NCBI RefSeq assembly: GCF_037139295.1 | Contig: NZ_JBAXGR010000008.1 | Coordinates: forward strand, 6,890 to 70,889 | Direction: 5' to 3' | Length of the DNA: 64,000 bases | DNA from: Aestuariivirga sp. | Lineage (GTDB): Bacteria; Pseudomonadota; Alphaproteobacteria; Rhizobiales; Aestuariivirgaceae | Shown: in pieces, positions 53,674 through 64,000 of the stretch | Numbering within the stretch: the stretch's first letter is position 1 | How the letters are laid out: each line of letters starts with the position of its first letter | Position numbers and translations under genes: made by a program | Notes under the pieces: generated by a model | Told to the model about the DNA's origin: nothing | Database searches by the model: none | The model's input: only the letters and a program-made list of their open reading frames with translations

Positions 53674-55113
53674 ATGCGGAAGAGAATGACTGTTTTGACG
53701 GACGTGAAAACGAGGTGGGATCGTGTTGCGCTTCGGCTGCGTGCTGAACTTGGTGAAGATCTCTACACTTCGTGGTTCGCCCGCATGGAGCTCGAAGAGT
53801 TCGAGCAGGGCCGCCTGATCGTTTCCGTTCCCACCCGCTTCCTGAAATCCTGGATCGAGACCCATTACGTCTCCAAGCTGCACAAGATCAGCGAGGCCGA
53901 ACTCGGCCAATTTGATACCATTCATGTGCGCGTGCGTATGCGGGCCGGCGTTGCCCAGCGCGCCGCGTCGGATGAAAATGGCTCTCATGCGCCGCATTCC
54001 GCGGCCGCACCGCATCCGCAGCCCTCGGTGGTTGCCCAGGCTCAGGCCGTGGCCGCCGCCGAACGCGGGCCGCAACTTGATCCCAACCAGACCTTCGAGA
54101 CCTTCATGGTGGGTTCATCCAATCAGCTGGCCCATGCCGCGATGTGCCGCGTGGCGGATGCCGCCCCCGGCGCTGCCGTCACCTTCAACCCGCTGTTCGT
54201 TCATGCAGGCTCGGGGCTGGGCAAGACGCATCTGCTTTCCGCCGTCGCCCACCGCGTGAAGGAAAAGCGCCCGGACCGCCGCGTGATGGTCCTCACCGCC
54301 GAACGCTTCATGATCAATTTCGTGATGGCGCTCCGCCAGCGTGACACCCTGGCCTTCAAGGACCAGTTCGCCGCGGTGGATGTTCTCCTGATCGACGATT
54401 TCCAGTTCCTGCAGGGCAAGACCATGCAGCAGGAGTTCTGCAATGCCTTCAACGGCCTCGTGGACTCGCGCCGGCAGGTGATTGTGGCCGCCGACGTGCC
54501 GCCCTCGCAGCTTGACTCGATCGACCAGCGCATGCGCTCGCGCCTGATGGGAGGCCTCGTCGTTGACATCGAGATGCCAGATCTCGAAACCCGCCGCCGC
54601 ATTCTGCAGAGCCGCTACGAGACGATGCAGAAGCGCGACCCCTCGATCCTGATCCCTGACGAGGTGCTGGAATTCATCGCCAACCGGGTGACCGGCACGG
54701 GCCGCGAACTGGAAGGCGCCCTGAACCGCATCACCGCCTACCAGCAGTTCAACAATGCCGCCGTGACGCTTGATCTTGCCTCACTGGTGCTGCGCGACAT
54801 GCAGTCCAGCCCAGATGGTTCGCGCATCAAGATCGACGACATCCTGAAGATCGTCGGCCGCCACTTCAACGTGGGCCGCACCGACCTGCTGTCGCCCCGC
54901 CGGGCGCGGAGCGTGGTGGTTCCCCGCCAGATCGGCATGTATCTGGCCAAGAAGATGACCGCCCGGTCGCTGCCCGAGATCGGCCGCCGCTTCGGTGGCA
55001 GGGACCATTCGACGGTGCTGCACGCCGTGCGCAAGATCGAGGACCAGATCAAGACGGACGACAAGCTCGCCCGCGAGGTGGCCCTCCTCATCCGGCTCGT
55101 CGAACAGGGCTGA
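53674..55113 (+). CDS. dnaA: Chromosomal replication initiator
   Basis: NPLFVHAGSGLGKTHL, LLIDDFQFL, RELEGAL, SLPEIGRRFGGRDHSTVLHA. Alternative ATG at 53686. Confidence 0.98.
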   Translation: MRKRMTVLTDVKTRWDRVALRLRAELGEDLYTSWFARMELEEFEQGRLIVSVPTRFLKSWIETHYVSKLHKISEAELGQFDTIHVRVRMRAGVAQRAASDENGSHAPHSAAAPHPQPSVVAQAQAVAAAERGPQLDPNQTFETFMVGSSNQLAHAAMCRVADAAPGAAVTFNPLFVHAGSGLGKTHLLSAVAHRVKEKRPDRRVMVLTAERFMINFVMALRQRDTLAFKDQFAAVDVLLIDDFQFLQGKTMQQEFCNAFNGLVDSRRQVIVAADVPPSQLDSIDQRMRSRLMGGLVVDIEMPDLETRRRILQSRYETMQKRDPSILIPDEVLEFIANRVTGTGRELEGALNRITAYQQFNNAAVTLDLASLVLRDMQSSPDGSRIKIDDILKIVGRHFNVGRTDLLSPRRARSVVVPRQIGMYLAKKMTARSLPEIGRRFGGRDHSTVLHAVRKIEDQIKTDDKLAREVALLIRLVEQG

Positions 55114-56331: not shown

Positions 56332-59918
<3,587 letters not shown>

Positions 59919-59941: not shown

Positions 59942-60138
59942 GATTCCGTCGCTAACATCAACACTGCGGAAGGTGAGCTATCATGGCTCCCGGGCATGAT
60001 GCCGCCGCCACCCCCGTCCTGTCCCTGACCATTTGAGCACTGTGCAAGTCTCGCGCAGGGTTGCGGCGGCAATGTCTTCCATGCGGATCGTGAGGTTGAT
60101 TGGGGGTGCGAGCAGCTCCACCCAGCGGGAGCCCATCT

Positions 60139-63000
60139 ATGTCGATCGTTTCGTCGCTGACCACAAGGCAGATCGCCACCCTGAGCACCACGGCCATCAG
60201 GGCCCTGTCGACGACCGATGTGGCAGCACTCAGCACAACGCAGGTCTCGGCCCTCACTGCCTCGCAGATCAATGCGATGGAGACAACCGACCTCACCACG
60301 CTCGACACCAACCAGGTGCAGGCGATCTCCACCACCGCCATCAAGTCGCTGATCGCAGCGAGCATCACCAATCTCGCCGACACGCAGGCAGCGGCACTCA
60401 CCACCGGGCAGATCGGCCTCCTGCAGGCCTATGCGGTGGAAGCGCTTGAATCGACCGATGTCCAGGCATGGAACACCACGCAGCTGGGTGCCATCACCTC
60501 GCGTCAGCTGGCAGGCCTCACCACCACGGCGCTCGCCGACTTCTCAGATACGCAGCTGGGTCAGCTCACCTCCACCCAGGTGCGTGGCCTAACGACGAGC
60601 CAGCTCAACATCCTCGCCACCACCCAGCTCAACGCGCTCAACATCGCCGATCTCTCCGCCACCCAGGTTCGCGGCATGACATCGACAGCGGTCGATGCGC
60701 TGTCGACCACCCAGGCGCAGGCACTCACCGTCTCGCAGATCGCGGTTCTCTCCGCCCCGGGTGTTGAAGCCTTGAGCTCGACCGAAATCCAGGGCTGGTC
60801 CACCACGCAGCTCGGAGCCCTCACCTCGCAGCAACTGGGTGGGCTCACGACCACGGCACTCGCCGACTTCTCCGACACGCAGCTTGGCCAGATGACTTCG
60901 ACGCAGTTGCGCGGCCTGACCACGCTGCAACTCAACAACCTTGCCACGACCCAGCTCAACGCCATCGACGTCACAGCACTGTCGGCCACGCAGATCCGCG
61001 GCATGAGCTCCACCGCCATAGACGCGCTGACGGACACCCAGGCGCAGGCGCTGACCACCGCGCAGATCGCGGCCATGTCGGTCACCGGCATGGATGCGCT
61101 GACCTCCACCGACGTCCAGGGCTGGAGCACCACCCAGCTTGGCGCCATCACCTCGCAGCAGCTGGCGGGCCTCACCACCACCGCACTCGCCGACTTCTCG
61201 GATACCCAGCTCGGCCAGCTGAGCGCCACCCAGGTGAAGGGTCTCACCTCCACCCAGCTTAACGGCCTTGCCAGCACGCAGCTGAACGCGCTGAACGTCA
61301 CGGATCTCTCTGTGTCACAGATCCGCAACATGAGCTCCACGGCGATCGGCACGCTGTCCAGCACACAGGCCCAGGCCCTTGGTTCGCTGCAGATCGGGGT
61401 GCTCAGCGCCGGCGGCCTCGAGGCGCTCGCTTCGACCGATATACAGGCATGGTCGACGACGCAGCTTGGCGCCATCACATCCCAGCAGATGGCTGGCCTG
61501 ACAACCACTGGCATCGCTGATTTCTCGGACACGCAGCTGGGCCAGTTGACCTCCGCCCAGATCCGCGGCCTCACCTCGACCCAAATCAACAATCTCGGCA
61601 CCACCCAGCTCAACGCGTTGGACGTCGCCAGCCTCTCCGCCGCGCAGGTGACCGGCTTCACGACAACCGCCATCGGCAGCCTCACCTCCACTCAGGCGCA
61701 GGGCTTCACCGTCACGCAGATCGCCGCGCTGACGGCCACCGGTCTGGGCGGCGTCGCCAGCACCGATCTGCAGGCCTGGAGCACGACCCAGCTCGGCGCC
61801 ATCACCACGCGCCAGATGTCGCAGCTCACCACCACGGCACTTGCCAATTTCTCGGATACGCAGCTGGGTCAGCTGACCTCGACCCAGGTCCGTGGCCTCA
61901 CCTCAACCCAAATCAACAATCTCGGCACAACCCAGCTGAACGCGCTGAACGTTGCCGACCTGTCGACGGCGCAGGTCCGGGCGATGAACTCGACGGCGAT
62001 TGATGCGCTGACCACTACCCAGGCTCAGTCGCTCACCACCGCACAGATCGCCGTGCTCTCTGCCACCGGCCTCTCGGCGCTCAGCTCCACAGAACTGCAG
62101 GGCTGGTCGACAACGCAGCTTGGCGCGATCACCTCGCAGCAGTTCGTCGGCATCGCAGCCACGGAAGTCGAGGACTTCTCGACCACCCAGCTGTCGAGCC
62201 TCACCTCCACCCAGCTCCGCGGCCTCAGCGCAACCCAGCTGAGCGGCCTGTCCAGCACCTATCTGCAGGCGCTCGACGTTGCCTCTCTCTCCACACAGCA
62301 GGTGGCGGGCCTCGATACCACGGCGGCGGGCAACCTCTCCAGCACACAGGTGCAGTCGCTGTCGGCTGCACAGATCGGCGCCGTGACGGCGGGCTCGCTC
62401 TCCGCCTTCGGCTCGACCGATATCCAGGCCTGGAACACCACGCAGCTCGGCGCCGTGACGGCGACCCAGCTCGGGGGCCTGACCACGACCGAGATCACCG
62501 ACTTCTCGGATACGCAGCTGGGCCAGCTTGCGTCCACGCAGCTCCGTGGGTTCACCTCGACCCAGCTCAATGCGCTTGATACCGCACAGTTGACGGTGCT
62601 CACTGCGTCGTCCCTCTCGACGGCGCAGATCGGCGGCCTCACCTCGACGGCCCTCGACCGCTTCACCACCACGCAGATCGGCTCGCTCGATGCCAGCCAG
62701 TTCCGCGCCATCACGCCCGCCGCGCTGGACAGCCTCGACACCGCGATTTTCTCGGGCCTGAACGCCACGCAGGCGGGCGCCCTGACATCTGCCCAGGTCG
62801 CGGTCCTCAGCACCACCAACTTCGCGTCGCTGAACGAGACCACCGGCATCCCGTCGCTCGCCGTCTCGGCCATCGCCGGCATCACCACGGACCAGATCGC
62901 GGCACTGTCCAGCACCCAGGCCAATGCCTTCACCACCTCGCAGATCGGGCTGATGAGCTCCGACCAGCTCACCGCCCTCATCATCGCCTCCAACGCATAA
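60139..63000 (+). CDS. Ser/Thr-rich octapeptide-repeat protein (953 aa), uncharacterized
   Basis: GGGAG RBS then ATG at 60139; GC3-rich codon use; repeats of L-[S/T]-x-x-Q-[ILV]-x-x; no signal peptide; no Cys or His seen. Confidence 0.9.
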   Translation: MSIVSSLTTRQIATLSTTAIRALSTTDVAALSTTQVSALTASQINAMETTDLTTLDTNQVQAISTTAIKSLIAASITNLADTQAAALTTGQIGLLQAYAVEALESTDVQAWNTTQLGAITSRQLAGLTTTALADFSDTQLGQLTSTQVRGLTTSQLNILATTQLNALNIADLSATQVRGMTSTAVDALSTTQAQALTVSQIAVLSAPGVEALSSTEIQGWSTTQLGALTSQQLGGLTTTALADFSDTQLGQMTSTQLRGLTTLQLNNLATTQLNAIDVTALSATQIRGMSSTAIDALTDTQAQALTTAQIAAMSVTGMDALTSTDVQGWSTTQLGAITSQQLAGLTTTALADFSDTQLGQLSATQVKGLTSTQLNGLASTQLNALNVTDLSVSQIRNMSSTAIGTLSSTQAQALGSLQIGVLSAGGLEALASTDIQAWSTTQLGAITSQQMAGLTTTGIADFSDTQLGQLTSAQIRGLTSTQINNLGTTQLNALDVASLSAAQVTGFTTTAIGSLTSTQAQGFTVTQIAALTATGLGGVASTDLQAWSTTQLGAITTRQMSQLTTTALANFSDTQLGQLTSTQVRGLTSTQINNLGTTQLNALNVADLSTAQVRAMNSTAIDALTTTQAQSLTTAQIAVLSATGLSALSSTELQGWSTTQLGAITSQQFVGIAATEVEDFSTTQLSSLTSTQLRGLSATQLSGLSSTYLQALDVASLSTQQVAGLDTTAAGNLSSTQVQSLSAAQIGAVTAGSLSAFGSTDIQAWNTTQLGAVTATQLGGLTTTEITDFSDTQLGQLASTQLRGFTSTQLNALDTAQLTVLTASSLSTAQIGGLTSTALDRFTTTQIGSLDASQFRAITPAALDSLDTAIFSGLNATQAGALTSAQVAVLSTTNFASLNETTGIPSLAVSAIAGITTDQIAALSSTQANAFTTSQIGLMSSDQLTALIIASNA
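60469..62757 (+). repeat. Seven tandem 327-nt (109-aa) intragenic super-repeats
   Basis: Trp codons at 60469, 60796, 61123, 61450, 61777, 62104, 62431 (exact 327-nt spacing); each unit = 13 octads + one 5-mer. Confidence 0.95.
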
Positions 63001-63018
63001 GCCGGAGATCAACGCGCC

Positions 63019-64000
63019 TTGTCATCCTCCATCGCCACACTGTTCCGTGACGCTGACATCATCGAAAAGACCGAAGGAGCACTGGCGGCCGCCGAGCTCT
63101 ACAAGCGCTGGGTTGCCCTCAATCCGGACGACCAAAACCTTGCGGCGGCACATTTCAACATGGCGGTGGTGGCCCAGCGCGGCGGAGATGCCTATGCCGC
63201 CATCAATGCGCTGCGCGATGCGCTGAGGATAGATCCGGGCTTCCACCCCTCCTACATCAACCTCGGCCGCGCGCTGGAGGACATTGGTCAGACGGGCGAT
63301 GCGGTGAGCCAGTGGCTTGCCCTCGTGAACCGGCTTCCTGCGGTCAATGGCACAACGCTGCGCCACAAGGTGATGGCGCTGCACCAGCTGGGCCGCGTGC
63401 TCGAATTCAACCATGCCGATGCGCCCGCTGAGGATGCCCTGCGCCAGGCGATCGATCTCTCGCCTAGCCAGGCTCAGGCCATCCAGCACTGGATCGCGCT
63501 GCGCCAGAGGCAGTGCAAGTGGCCGGTGGTGCAAGGCTGGGATGGGGTGGAGGCACGGCAGCTTCTCGCCCACATCTCGCCGCTCTCCACCGCCGTGATG
63601 TTTGACGATCCGGTGTTCCAGCTGGCTCGCAATGCCGCCTATGCGCGCCAGTCAATCGCCCGGCCACCCCATGTGCATGACCATTCTGCACGGCCGTCGG
63701 AGCGTCCAGCGCGTCTCAAGATCGGCTACGTCTCCTCCGACCTGCGCGAGCATGCCGTGGGCTTCGGGCTCTGCGAGGTGATGGAGCTCCATGACCGCAG
63801 CCGCTTCGAGGTCCACGCCTATTACTGCGGCATCCCGCGCGAGGACGGCACGCGTGAGCGCATCCGCTCCGCAGTTGATCACTGGACGGATATTTCCAGC
63901 CTGTCGGACGATGCCGCTGCGGCGCGCATCGCAGCCGATGGCATCGATATCCTGGTTGATGTGAACGGCTACACGCGCGATGCCCGCACCGCTGTCTTCG
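63019..64000 (+). CDS. TPR + GT41 glycosyltransferase (OGT/SPINDLY-like), truncated by the window end
   Basis: Translated manually (not in the ORF track). GGAG RBS, TTG start; TPR-like helices (AAAHFNMAVVAQRGGDAYAAINALRDALRIDP; SYINLGRALEDIGQ); LKIGYVSSDLREHAVG; LHDRSRFEVHAY; DGIDILVDVNGYT. Confidence 0.88.
   Translation, partial: MSSSIATLFRDADIIEKTEGALAAAELYKRWVALNPDDQNLAAAHFNMAVVAQRGGDAYAAINALRDALRIDPGFHPSYINLGRALEDIGQTGDAVSQWLALVNRLPAVNGTTLRHKVMALHQLGRVLEFNHADAPAEDALRQAIDLSPSQAQAIQHWIALRQRQCKWPVVQGWDGVEARQLLAHISPLSTAVMFDDPVFQLARNAAYARQSIARPPHVHDHSARPSERPARLKIGYVSSDLREHAVGFGLCEVMELHDRSRFEVHAYYCGIPREDGTRERIRSAVDHWTDISSLSDDAAAARIAADGIDILVDVNGYTRDARTAVF

What the first reader, a model, noticed from the sequence alone, without database searches (positions are those of the whole stretch)
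60139..64000. Candidate dedicated protein O-glycosylation system: Ser/Thr octapeptide-repeat protein plus adjacent TPR-GT41 transferase
Seen: a 953-aa protein with about 28% Ser+Thr (31 of 109 residues in the first full unit) is followed 18 nt later by a TPR-containing ORF with IGYVSSDLREHAVG and DGIDILVDVNGYT. Established: these motifs match the GT41 catalytic lobe (human OGT GYVSSDFGNHP and DGIHILVNMNGYT; plant SPINDLY). GT41 enzymes glycosylate protein Ser/Thr (OGT, SPY) or Asn (HMW1C), and bacterial adhesin/glycosyltransferase pairs are typically co-encoded (HMW1A/HMW1C; streptococcal serine-rich repeat proteins with GtfA/B). Inference: the repeat protein is the cognate substrate, giving a densely and regularly glycosylated solenoid. 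I know of no characterised system with this substrate type. The lack of a Sec signal fits cytoplasmic glycosylation, with an unknown export route or an intracellular role. The module sits directly after the dnaA-dnaN-recF-gyrB core block.
Basis: partly seen in the sequence, partly recalled or inferred. Interest (0 to 1): 0.85.

Follow-up and report, generated by a model that had tools for sequence, protein, structure and literature searches.

The report
Threonine-rich repeat protein with OGT-like glycosyltransferase
A 953-residue protein built from Thr/Ser-rich eight-residue mini-helices is encoded just upstream of a complete enzyme related to human O-GlcNAc transferase; the two genes stay together across several bacterial phyla, so the repeat protein is the likeliest natural target of an enzyme class whose bacterial substrates are mostly unknown, though no experiment has tested this.

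Summary
Window 60139-63000 encodes a 953-aa protein with 30% Ser+Thr and seven 109-aa units made of octads L-[ST]-[ST]-T-Q-[LIV]-x-[AG]. It belongs to Pfam PF20080, the "ALTTAQ repeat" (E 1e-114). Eighteen nt downstream starts a TPR-GT41 gene. Read beyond the window, it is complete (659 aa), has both catalytic lobes, and keeps the OGT catalytic His, Lys and HTT-x-x-D. It is OGT/XcOGT-like, not HMW1C-like. This genome has only one ALTTAQ gene and one GT41 gene, and they are these two.

Among 76 informative loci encoding GT41 orthologues (39-82% identity; Alphaproteobacteria, Magnetococcales, Desulfovibrio/Geobacter relatives, Opitutaceae, Acidobacteria), 58 have an ALTTAQ giant directly upstream on the same strand and 6 more have one within 10 kb. 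Recurrent accessory genes are UDP-xylose synthase (16 loci), a type I secretion ABC/HlyD pair (16) and FkbM methyltransferases (19).

AlphaFold2 (pLDDT 93) gives one 5-6-residue helix per octad, with no close PDB counterpart.

Most likely this is a dedicated cytoplasmic O-glycosylation pair, but glycosylation itself is inferred. ALTTAQ repeats in general are not tied to GT41. I found nothing on it in the literature; earlier notes of this scan report the same module in other genomes.

The parts
60127..60131 (+). Shine-Dalgarno-like GGGAG, 7 nt before the ATG of the repeat-protein gene
   Evidence: Read directly from the sequence. The ATG at 60139 gives the N-terminus MSIVSSL, which orthologues share.
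60139..63000 (+). ALTTAQ-repeat protein gene (953 aa, stop included). All repeat, no other domain, no Cys or His, 30% Ser+Thr, 11% Gln.
   Evidence: Pfam PF20080 E 1.4e-114, 26 stretches. It is the only ALTTAQ gene in the genome.
60466..62754 (+). Seven tandem 109-aa super-repeats (aa 110-872). Each is about 13.6 octads of consensus L-[ST]-[ST]-T-Q-[LIV]-x-[AG].
   Evidence: Lag-109 self-identity is 53%, and the rows line up when the sequence is printed 109 per line. Each unit holds 31-35 S+T.
60139..61500 (+). Segment modelled by AlphaFold2 (aa 1-454): one 5-6-residue helix per octad, forming a continuous alpha-solenoid rod.
   Evidence: pLDDT 93.3 and pTM 0.79 with a 26-sequence alignment. 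There is no close PDB fold; the best normalised TM-scores are about 0.2-0.3.
63004..63007 (+). GGAG ribosome-binding site in the 18-nt spacer, 11 nt before the TTG start of the GT41 gene. This is an operon-type junction.
   Evidence: Read directly from the sequence. No terminator-like site lies between the genes.
63019..64000 (+). 5' part (327 of 659 codons) of the TPR-GT41 glycosyltransferase gene. The gene runs on to window-equivalent position 64998 (L002 3909-5888).
   Evidence: TPR models plus PF13844, 226.8 bits. One search shows both lobes, at C8:70553-70984 and 71087-71620. One search gives human OGT 6e-83 and XcOGT 5e-76. It is the only GT41 in the genome.

Best explanation
This is a two-gene operon for a dedicated protein O-glycosylation pair.

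Shown by sequence:
- The first gene encodes a 953-aa protein made only of ALTTAQ octads.
- The second gene encodes a soluble TPR + GT41 enzyme of the OGT/XcOGT type with intact catalytic residues.
- The pair is conserved as neighbours across several phyla.

Predicted: the repeat protein folds into a rod of 5-6-residue helices. Each helix starts at a Ser/Thr N-cap, followed by one or two exposed Thr.

Inferred mechanism:
- In the cytoplasm the short TPR superhelix of the GT41 holds the still-extended repeat polypeptide.
- The GT-B catalytic domain transfers a monosaccharide from a UDP-sugar onto Thr/Ser of successive octads. Positions 3-4 of L-S-T-T-Q are the most likely acceptors.
- The result is a regularly sugar-coated fibre.

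Inferred from relatives:
- The donor may be UDP-xylose. UDP-glucuronate decarboxylase (UXS) genes abut the GT41 gene in 16 related loci, and this genome has a ugd-uxs pair elsewhere.
- The product is exported, probably by type I secretion, and serves as a surface or extracellular fibre such as an adhesin or matrix component.

In this genome the module is minimal: it has no linked methyltransferase, UXS or T1SS genes.
For: - The enzyme is complete and looks active. PF13844 scores 226.8 bits and TPR models match. Both lobes are present. Human OGT scores 6e-83 and XcOGT 5e-76 over residues 55-565. SSDLREH, QKITP and HTTASD align with OGT His498, Lys842 and Thr921/922-Asp925 and are invariant in six ALTTAQ-linked orthologues.
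- The junction is operon-like: an 18-nt gap with GGAG.
- Both genes are single copies in the genome and lie side by side.
- Synteny is conserved. All 4 large ALTTAQ proteins in a 151-genome sample of the order have GT41 directly downstream, across three families. Of 76 informative GT41-orthologue loci, 58 have an ALTTAQ ORF directly upstream and 6 more within 10 kb. G419 was split by a contig break but also joins up as ALTTAQ followed by GT41.
- Accessory genes fit a glycoprotein-export pathway. UXS (human UXS1 E 2e-128) occurs in 16 of 85 loci, often abutting GT41; the binomial p against a random 22-kb window is 6e-21. HlyB-type ABC (TIGR01846, 4.6e-184) and HlyD (TIGR01843, 1e-99) occur in 16 loci, and FkbM methyltransferases in 19.
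- This genome has ugd+uxs at C19:46057-48423.
- Acceptor geometry fits. S/T occupy octad positions 2-4 at 75/58/57%. AF2 helices start at position 3.
- There is a precedent for a cytoplasmic TPR+GT-B enzyme whose TPR domain binds a secreted filament protein: FlmG (PMC7591256).
Against: - There is no biochemical or expression evidence.
- Ser/Thr at octad position 2 has a structural explanation as a helix N-cap. It is as frequent (about 80%) in ALTTAQ proteins that have no GT41 neighbour.
- ALTTAQ repeats in general are not GT41-linked. None of 8 more distant or multidomain ALTTAQ proteins examined has a GT41 neighbour, and 2 genomes with ALTTAQ segments have no GT41 at all.
- My own prediction, that high Thr at octad position 4 marks GT41 linkage, failed on 4 of 4 prospective cases.
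- The genome has flagellins, so another GT41 substrate cannot be excluded.
- This locus has no export genes. The only T1SS-like pair in the genome is distant, at 28-31% identity on contig C181.
- UXS is common in the order (56 of 151 genomes), so its mere presence in this genome says little.
Confidence: 0.6

Rival explanations
1. The GT41 glycosylates some other protein, such as flagellin (as FlmG does in Caulobacter), a pilin (as Ogt does in Synechococcus), or many cytoplasmic proteins. The ALTTAQ gene would then be only a co-regulated neighbour, for instance another surface component.
For: Known bacterial TPR-glycosyltransferases act on flagellin or pilin (PMC7591256; bioRxiv 10.1101/2021.07.06.449578, listed). 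This genome has flagellin genes. Many ALTTAQ proteins exist without a GT41 neighbour.
Against: Nothing flagellar or pilus-related lies within the 13 kb around the pair. The downstream genes are a SorC-type regulator, a hydrolase and an E1 dehydrogenase, and the flagellins are on other contigs. Tight same-strand adjacency in 58 of 76 loci across phyla, with neighbourhoods that otherwise vary, is hard to explain by co-regulation alone.
Confidence: 0.15
2. The TPR-GT41 protein works mainly as a chaperone, holdase or secretion adaptor. It would keep the repeat protein unfolded for export, and sugar transfer would be absent or incidental.
For: TPR domains are protein-binding modules. T1SS substrates must stay unfolded before export. 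No donor-sugar genes are linked in this locus.
Against: The catalytic His, Lys and HTT-x-x-D motif and the whole UDP-binding lobe are invariant among ALTTAQ-linked orthologues at only 33-49% overall identity. UXS and sugar O-methyltransferase (FkbM) genes recur next to the GT41.
Confidence: 0.07
3. The ALTTAQ protein stays in the cell as a cytoplasmic or periplasmic scaffold or filament, and the GT41 regulates it, in the manner of eukaryotic O-GlcNAc signalling. It would not be an exported, sugar-coated fibre.
For: There is no signal peptide, no RTX motif, and no export genes in this locus. The gene lies next to the dnaA-gyrB core block in four Aestuariivirga genomes.
Against: HlyB/HlyD type I secretion genes flank the pair in 16 related loci. 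Other ALTTAQ proteins carry RTX, Big, calpain and autotransporter-style extracellular domains. Sizes up to about 3,300 aa and rapid repeat-number variation (800-3,290 aa) are typical of surface fibres.
Confidence: 0.1

Closest known systems
XcOGT (Xanthomonas campestris XCC0866; PDB 2JLB, 2VSY, 2VSN) and human OGT (GT41 O-GlcNAc transferases)
   Same: The architecture is the same as XcOGT: a few TPRs fused to a GT-B GT41 domain, without the metazoan intervening domain. Scores are E 5e-76 over residues 55-565 for XcOGT and 6e-83 for human OGT. Catalytic His, Lys and HTT-x-x-D are conserved.
   Different: The natural substrate is not discussed in the XcOGT structural paper I searched (PMC2556091). 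Here a specific candidate substrate is encoded in the same operon. The donor may not be UDP-GlcNAc, given the UXS linkage in relatives. Activity is untested.
FlmG of Caulobacter crescentus (flagellin O-glycosyltransferase; PMC7591256)
   Same: FlmG is a soluble cytoplasmic enzyme with an N-terminal TPR domain that binds the substrate and a C-terminal GT-B domain. It modifies Ser/Thr of a filament protein before secretion. This is the closest working model.
   Different: The substrate there is flagellin and the donor is pseudaminic acid, with a flagellar gene context. Here the partner is an ALTTAQ giant, no nonulosonic-acid genes are present, and the enzyme is a clear OGT-type GT41. I did not test whether FlmG is a GT41 member.
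HMW1 adhesin / HMW1C (and ApNGT, AaNGT) of Haemophilus, Actinobacillus and Aggregatibacter
   Same: The logic is the same: a giant secreted repeat or adhesin protein is glycosylated at many sites in the cytoplasm by a co-encoded soluble GT41-family enzyme, using simple sugars (PMC3012730, PMC3983070).
   Different: HMW1C enzymes are N-glycosyltransferases without TPRs. This enzyme matches them only marginally (PDB 3q3e E 1.8e-7; NCBIfam NGTferase 29.8 bits against a cut-off of 1000). The substrate has almost no NxS/T logic, and export there is by two-partner secretion.
Serine-rich repeat glycoproteins with GtfA/GtfB (streptococci, staphylococci)
   Same: A very long Ser/Thr-rich repeat protein is O-glycosylated in the cytoplasm by a dedicated co-encoded transferase before export as a surface fibre.
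   Different: Those systems are Gram-positive, with GT4-type GtfA/B, an accessory Sec (SecA2/Y2) system, a special signal peptide, LPXTG anchoring and disordered SASESAS-type repeats. None of these is present here, and the repeat here is predicted to be a folded alpha-solenoid.
Pfam PF20080 'ALTTAQ repeat' proteins (uncharacterised)
   Same: The repeat protein is a full member: 373.9 bits, 26 stretches.
   Different: The family is heterogeneous, with fusions to calpain, RTX, SPM, Big and metalloprotease domains. Only the all-repeat giants with the conserved MSISSLS..QIAALS N-terminus are GT41-linked. A full-text search for 'ALTTAQ' found no paper.

Membership tests
GT41 glycosyltransferases (Pfam PF13844; OGT/SPY/XcOGT type) | Match to the family profile above the curated threshold, covering both Rossmann-like lobes of the GT-B catalytic domain | tested here: met
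   PF13844 scores 226.8 bits against a cut-off of 25. Profile positions 66-208 and 359-536 match in one 665-aa open frame.
GT41 glycosyltransferases (Pfam PF13844; OGT/SPY/XcOGT type) | N-terminal tetratricopeptide repeats fused to the catalytic domain | tested here: met
   TPR_17, TPR_12, TPR_2 and TPR_8 match within residues 30-96. Residues 16-105 align with human OGT TPRs.
GT41 glycosyltransferases (Pfam PF13844; OGT/SPY/XcOGT type) | Catalytic and UDP-binding residues equivalent to human OGT His498, Lys842, Thr921/Thr922 and Asp925 | tested here: met
   SSDLREH aligns with SSDFGNH, QKITP with YKIDP, and HTTASD with HTTGMD in the HMMER alignment. These residues are invariant in 6 ALTTAQ-linked orthologues. 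Residue numbering of human OGT is from my own knowledge.
GT41 glycosyltransferases (Pfam PF13844; OGT/SPY/XcOGT type) | Glycosyl transfer to protein Ser/Thr, and identity of the donor | not testable with these tools
   This needs an enzyme assay or mass spectrometry. The only hint at the donor is the UXS linkage in relatives.
HMW1C-like N-glycosyltransferases (NGT) | Match to the NGT equivalog model, or close similarity to solved NGTs; no TPR domain | tested here: not met
   NCBIfam NF049992 scores 29.8 bits against a cut-off of 1000. PDB 3q3e and 8j30 reach only E about 1e-7 over the C-lobe, and TPRs are present.
Pfam PF20080 ALTTAQ-repeat proteins | Multiple matches to the 38-position repeat profile above the gathering score | tested here: met
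   373.9 bits against 26.4, with 26 stretches. There are 25 matches in one 966-aa open frame.
Serine-rich repeat glycoproteins (SRRP/GtfAB/aSec) | Long N-terminal aSec signal peptide, SASESAS-type dipeptide repeats, LPXTG anchor, and linked gtfA/gtfB and secA2/secY2 | tested here: not met
   None of these appears in the sequence or among the neighbours. The repeat is an ordered octad, not dipeptides.
Type I secretion (RTX-type) substrates | Linked HlyB/HlyD genes, Gly-rich GGxGxD nonapeptides, and an uncleaved C-terminal signal | tested here: inconclusive
   There are no T1SS genes in this locus and no RTX match. HlyB (TIGR01846) and HlyD (TIGR01843) flank the orthologous pair in 16 of 85 loci. 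A conserved C-terminal ...[ST]xxQ[ILV]xA[LY]... end is shared by orthologues. The genome's own T1SS-like pair is distant.
FlmG-type flagellin glycosyltransferase systems | Genetic linkage to flagellin or flagellar genes and to nonulosonic-acid (pseudaminic acid) biosynthesis genes | tested here: not met
   No such genes lie within 13 kb. The flagellin genes are on other contigs, C259 and C230.

The most novel reading that the evidence does not exclude
The ALTTAQ-linked OGT-type GT41 enzymes are protein O-xylosyltransferases, or at least use a UXS-derived pentose rather than GlcNAc. They would decorate the exposed helix-start threonines of an 8-residue-repeat alpha-solenoid that has no solved counterpart. 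The product would be a bacterial mucin- or proteoglycan-like fibre, exported through type I secretion after cytoplasmic glycosylation. That would give bacterial OGT homologues their first defined natural substrate class and a new donor specificity for family GT41.
Probability: 0.2. Interest if true: 0.85.

Novelty: new variant of a known kind. Interest (0 to 1): 0.66.

Why it matters
Bacterial homologues of human OGT have served as structural stand-ins for the human enzyme since 2008, for example XcOGT. Their natural substrates and physiological roles remain largely unknown. A conserved operon that places such an enzyme next to one very regular, Thr-rich substrate candidate turns this into a direct experiment: co-express the two genes and weigh the product.

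If the inference holds, it would define four things:
- a new class of bacterial glycoprotein fibre;
- a repeat fold (one short helix per eight residues) with no solved relative;
- possibly a new donor sugar for GT41, with UDP-xylose suggested by gene linkage;
- a case of heavily glycosylated cargo passing through type I secretion.

The copy in this window is the smallest and simplest one seen here, with two genes and 953 aa. That makes it a convenient construct for such tests.

Tried and rejected
- Thr at octad position 4 as a marker of GT41 linkage. T at position 4 is 67% in 53 linked proteins but 19% in 6 unlinked ones. I then picked four database ALTTAQ proteins with high T at position 4 (P0006, P0073, P0037, P0045). 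None has a GT41 neighbour. The composition difference is real, but it is not a reliable predictor, so I dropped it as evidence.
- An HMW1C-type Asn-glycosyltransferase reading. Rejected.
- A leucine-rich-repeat or beta-solenoid fold, suggested by the weak Pfam LRR_EndoS hit and the 24-residue periodicity. AF2 gives all-helical octads instead. The DUF4351 hit has no significant stretch and is treated as compositional.
- A fold search against the PDB found no meaningful match. The best hits are mesothelin and designed repeat proteins, with normalised TM-scores of about 0.1-0.3.
- General linkage of ALTTAQ repeats to GT41. Rejected: none of 8 distant or multidomain homologues is linked, and in the class sample 2 of the 7 genomes with strong ALTTAQ matches lack GT41.
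- Genome-level UXS co-occurrence is only weak support. UXS is in 37% of genomes of the order, against 13 of 17 GT41 genomes (Fisher p 8e-4; not corrected for phylogeny or genome size).
- Sigma-70 promoter and intrinsic terminator scans of the locus found nothing.
- Literature searches for 'ALTTAQ', GT41 with type I secretion, and bacterial OGT homologues found no description of this pair.

Full report
**1. What is in the window**

The + strand carries rpsT, dnaA (53674-55113), dnaN, recF and gyrB (57486-59918). After a 220-nt gap comes a long ORF. From the ATG at 60139 it encodes 953 aa. A GGGAG lies 7 nt upstream, and orthologues begin with the same MSIVSSL.

The composition is extreme: T 178, A 137, L 131, S 110, Q 102, with no Cys or His, 3 Pro and 2 Lys. 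Ser+Thr is 30.2%.

Self-comparison gives 53% identity at lag 109, which marks seven tandem 109-aa units. Smaller peaks fall at lags 8, 16 and 24. Anchoring on the conserved Gln gives the octad L-[ST]-[ST]-T-Q-[LIV]-x-[AG]. Ser/Thr occupy positions 2, 3 and 4 at 75%, 58% and 57%.

The protein is a full member of the curated but unstudied Pfam family PF20080, the 'ALTTAQ repeat' (E 1.4e-114, 26 stretches). A full-text literature search for 'ALTTAQ' returned nothing.

**2. The second gene**

The stop codon TAA is at 62998-63000. GGAG follows at 63004-63007 and a TTG start at 63019, so the spacer is 18 nt. The window ends inside this ORF.

The window maps to contig C8:6890-70889 of its assembly, and I fetched the downstream DNA as L002. 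The ORF is complete at 659 aa (L002 3909-5888). It has TPR matches in residues 30-96 and Pfam Glyco_transf_41 at 226.8 bits, and both catalytic lobes are present.

Against solved structures, the best matches are:
- human OGT (E 6e-83);
- Xanthomonas XcOGT (E 5e-76, aligned over residues 55-565);
- Thermobaculum OGT;
- plant SPINDLY.

HMW1C-type N-glycosyltransferases score only about 1e-7. The NCBIfam NGT model scores 29.8 bits against a cut-off of 1000.

SSDLREH, QKITP and HTTASD align with the OGT motifs that carry the catalytic His, the UDP-binding Lys and the Thr-Thr-x-x-Asp. They are invariant in six orthologues that share only 33-49% identity with the window's GT41 overall. The metazoan intervening domain is absent, as in XcOGT.

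So the enzyme is an intact OGT/XcOGT-type O-glycosyltransferase. It is not an HMW1C-type enzyme.

Downstream lie unrelated genes: a SorC-type regulator, an alpha/beta hydrolase and a 2-oxoacid dehydrogenase E1 on the opposite strand, then a beta-lactamase-fold protein and a DMFA2_C protein. In this genome the module is therefore just two genes. The genome contains exactly one ALTTAQ gene and one GT41 gene, and they are these two.

**3. Is the pairing conserved?**

*Sampling genomes of the same order.* In an even sample of 151 genomes, GT41 occurs in 17 and large ALTTAQ proteins in 4. The four are this genome, a congener, and two genomes of other families with proteins of 2,936 and 3,290 aa. 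In all four the GT41 gene lies directly downstream on the same strand (Fisher p 1e-4).

*Sampling genomes of the class.* In a 401-genome sample, seven genomes have strong ALTTAQ hits.
- One more (G377) has two GT41 genes, a UXS gene and a T1SS pair beside its giant.
- In another (G419) a contig break splits the giant, but the pieces join up as ALTTAQ followed by GT41.
- One giant (G501) has the conserved N-terminus but no GT41 within the fetched flanks (about 9.5 kb upstream and 4.8 kb downstream of the gene). That genome has three GT41 genes elsewhere.
- A different ALTTAQ subfamily (G192, and a second gene in G377) is unlinked.
- Two small genomes have ALTTAQ segments but no GT41.

*Starting from the enzyme.* A scan of one genome per species returned 80 loci encoding GT41 orthologues at 39-82% identity. 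The closest are Aestuariivirga spp., which names the likely source genus. I scored all ORFs of these loci against the repeat protein.
- Of 76 loci with enough upstream sequence, 58 have an ALTTAQ ORF ending directly before the GT41 gene on the same strand.
- Six more have one within 10 kb.
- Twelve have none, including five betaproteobacterial GT41s at about 40% identity.

The taxa include Caulobacterales, Hyphomicrobiales, Acetobacterales, Rhodospirillales and Magnetococcales, Desulfovibrio and Geobacter relatives, an Opitutaceae and a Sulfotelmatobacter. Outside the pair the flanks differ from locus to locus. That points to a functional link rather than inherited gene order.

*The converse does not hold.* ALTTAQ repeats also occur fused to calpain, RTX, SPM, Big and metalloprotease domains. 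Eight such distant or multidomain proteins that I checked have no GT41 neighbour. The linked set consists of the all-repeat giants of 800-3,290 aa. These share the N-terminus M-x-I-S-x-L-[ST]-x-x-Q-I-A-x-L-S-T-T and a C-terminal ...[ST]-x-x-Q-[ILV]-x-A-[LY]... end.

**4. Accessory genes in relatives**

I clustered the neighbours across 85 loci and annotated the clusters. One search gives the gene orders.

- A UDP-glucuronate decarboxylase (UXS; E 2e-128 to human UXS1) occurs in 16 loci. It is often immediately before or after the GT41 gene on the same strand, and once has ugd beside it.
- A HlyB-type ABC exporter (TIGR01846, E 4.6e-184) with a HlyD adaptor (TIGR01843, E 1e-99) occurs in 16 loci.
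- An FkbM methyltransferase-TPR fusion occurs in 14 loci, and a small FkbM in 5.
- Several loci have tandem GT41 genes.

A UXS gene in 16 of 85 windows of 22 kb is far above chance (binomial p 6e-21). This holds even though UXS is common in the order, at 56 of 151 genomes.

This genome lacks a linked UXS, but it has a ugd-uxs pair at C19:46057-48423 with no glycosyltransferase beside it. It has no FkbM-TPR homologue. Its only T1SS-like pair is distant.

**5. Predicted fold**

I ran AlphaFold2 on aa 1-454 with a 26-orthologue alignment. The model has mean pLDDT 93.3 and pTM 0.79, with one 5-6-residue helix per octad along the whole length. Helices begin at octad position 3. Position 2 (S/T) is therefore the N-cap and the Gln at position 5 is the N3 residue, which is a capping-box arrangement (my inference from the DSSP string).

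Foldseek finds no real counterpart in the PDB. The best normalised TM-scores are about 0.2-0.3, to mesothelin and designed repeats.

The N-cap role explains why S/T at position 2 is about 80% in both GT41-linked and unlinked ALTTAQ proteins. Thr at positions 3 and 4 is higher in the linked giants: 42% and 67%, against 20% and 19% in six unlinked proteins. However, four database proteins with high Thr at position 4 lacked a GT41 neighbour. I therefore do not count this as evidence.

**6. Interpretation**

*Shown by sequence:* an intact OGT-type TPR-GT41 and an all-ALTTAQ protein form a conserved, operon-like pair across phyla.

*Inferred:* the GT41 O-glycosylates the repeat protein in the cytoplasm. 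Its TPRs hold the repetitive polypeptide, as the FlmG TPR domain holds flagellin (PMC7591256). The product is then exported, probably by type I secretion, as a sugar-coated fibre. UDP-xylose is a candidate donor. I put 0.6 on the substrate relationship and about 0.2-0.3 on the xylose donor.

*Rivals:*
- another substrate such as flagellin, which this genome has;
- a chaperone-only role for the GT41;
- an intracellular role for the repeat protein.

**7. Novelty**

Dedicated cytoplasmic glycosyltransferase-substrate pairs are known: HMW1C/HMW1, GtfAB/SRRP and FlmG/flagellin. The principle is therefore not new.

The enzyme type (OGT-like GT41), the substrate class and its predicted fold, and the accessory set (UXS, FkbM, T1SS) are not described in any paper I could find.

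Earlier AI notes of this scan report the same ALTTAQ+GT41 module in at least 11 other genomes. They agree with my reading but are not independent evidence. None mentions the UXS link. I reached my reading before consulting them.

This window adds the smallest, two-gene version of the module, its position beside the replication-origin gene block in Aestuariivirga, and the UXS-based hypothesis for the donor sugar.

Noticed in passing
L096 396-15672 (Ideonella paludis); similar gene order in L094, L095, L097, L098: The betaproteobacterial GT41 genes at about 40% identity have no ALTTAQ neighbour and are followed directly by HlyB-type ABC and HlyD genes. In L096 a 2,529-aa protein and a 569-aa protein lie just upstream; from the N-terminal sequence alone I read these as a possible two-partner-secretion pair (no domain search was run). 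This may be a different substrate for the same enzyme type.
   Followed up: partly
L035 4789-7080, with homologues in 13 other loci (e.g. L040, L044, L052, L093): A roughly 760-aa fusion of an FkbM-family methyltransferase, TPRs and about 500 unannotated residues lies directly after the GT41 gene. It may be a second, substrate-tethered modification enzyme, perhaps for sugar O-methylation. It is absent from the window's genome.
   Followed up: partly
L006 2856-6682, L038, L039, L047, L062, L064, L081, L088: Several loci carry two tandem GT41 paralogues (33-46% identical to the window's GT41 in L006) next to one ALTTAQ gene. This suggests two successive or site-specific transfers.
   Followed up: no
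L018 5346-14476 (JGI metagenome contig): A distant ALTTAQ protein (P0048, 1,491 aa) lies beside a 1,529-aa protein with a faint CBM_5_12 hit, in a run of small same-strand genes with DnaB helicase and family A DNA polymerase. The context looks phage-like, so ALTTAQ rods may also serve as phage fibres.
   Followed up: no
own genome C19:41676-49408: The genome's only ugd-uxs pair follows four ORFs that I read, from size and sequence only, as a sugar ABC importer. No glycosyltransferase lies beside the pair, so the consumer of its UDP-xylose is not identified by gene context.
   Followed up: partly
window 60561-61691 (-), 61903-63012 (-), 62259-62993 (-): Long antisense and off-frame ORFs of 244-376 aa lie inside the repeat gene. 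They are artefacts of the repetitive, GC-rich sequence. The same pattern appears in every orthologous locus and could mislead gene callers.
   Followed up: yes
window 60000-63000: GC skew drops to about -0.18 to -0.20 across the repeat gene, while G+C stays at the local level of 0.64-0.67. I read this as an effect of the gene's amino-acid and codon make-up rather than a sign of foreign DNA; this was not tested.
   Followed up: partly
L100 10001-24029 (ENA contig_2803): Two different multidomain ALTTAQ proteins (P0006 and P0091) lie 8 kb apart, with a 2OG-Fe(II) oxygenase and several genes without Pfam hits between them, and no GT41. This may be another kind of ALTTAQ-associated cassette.
   Followed up: no
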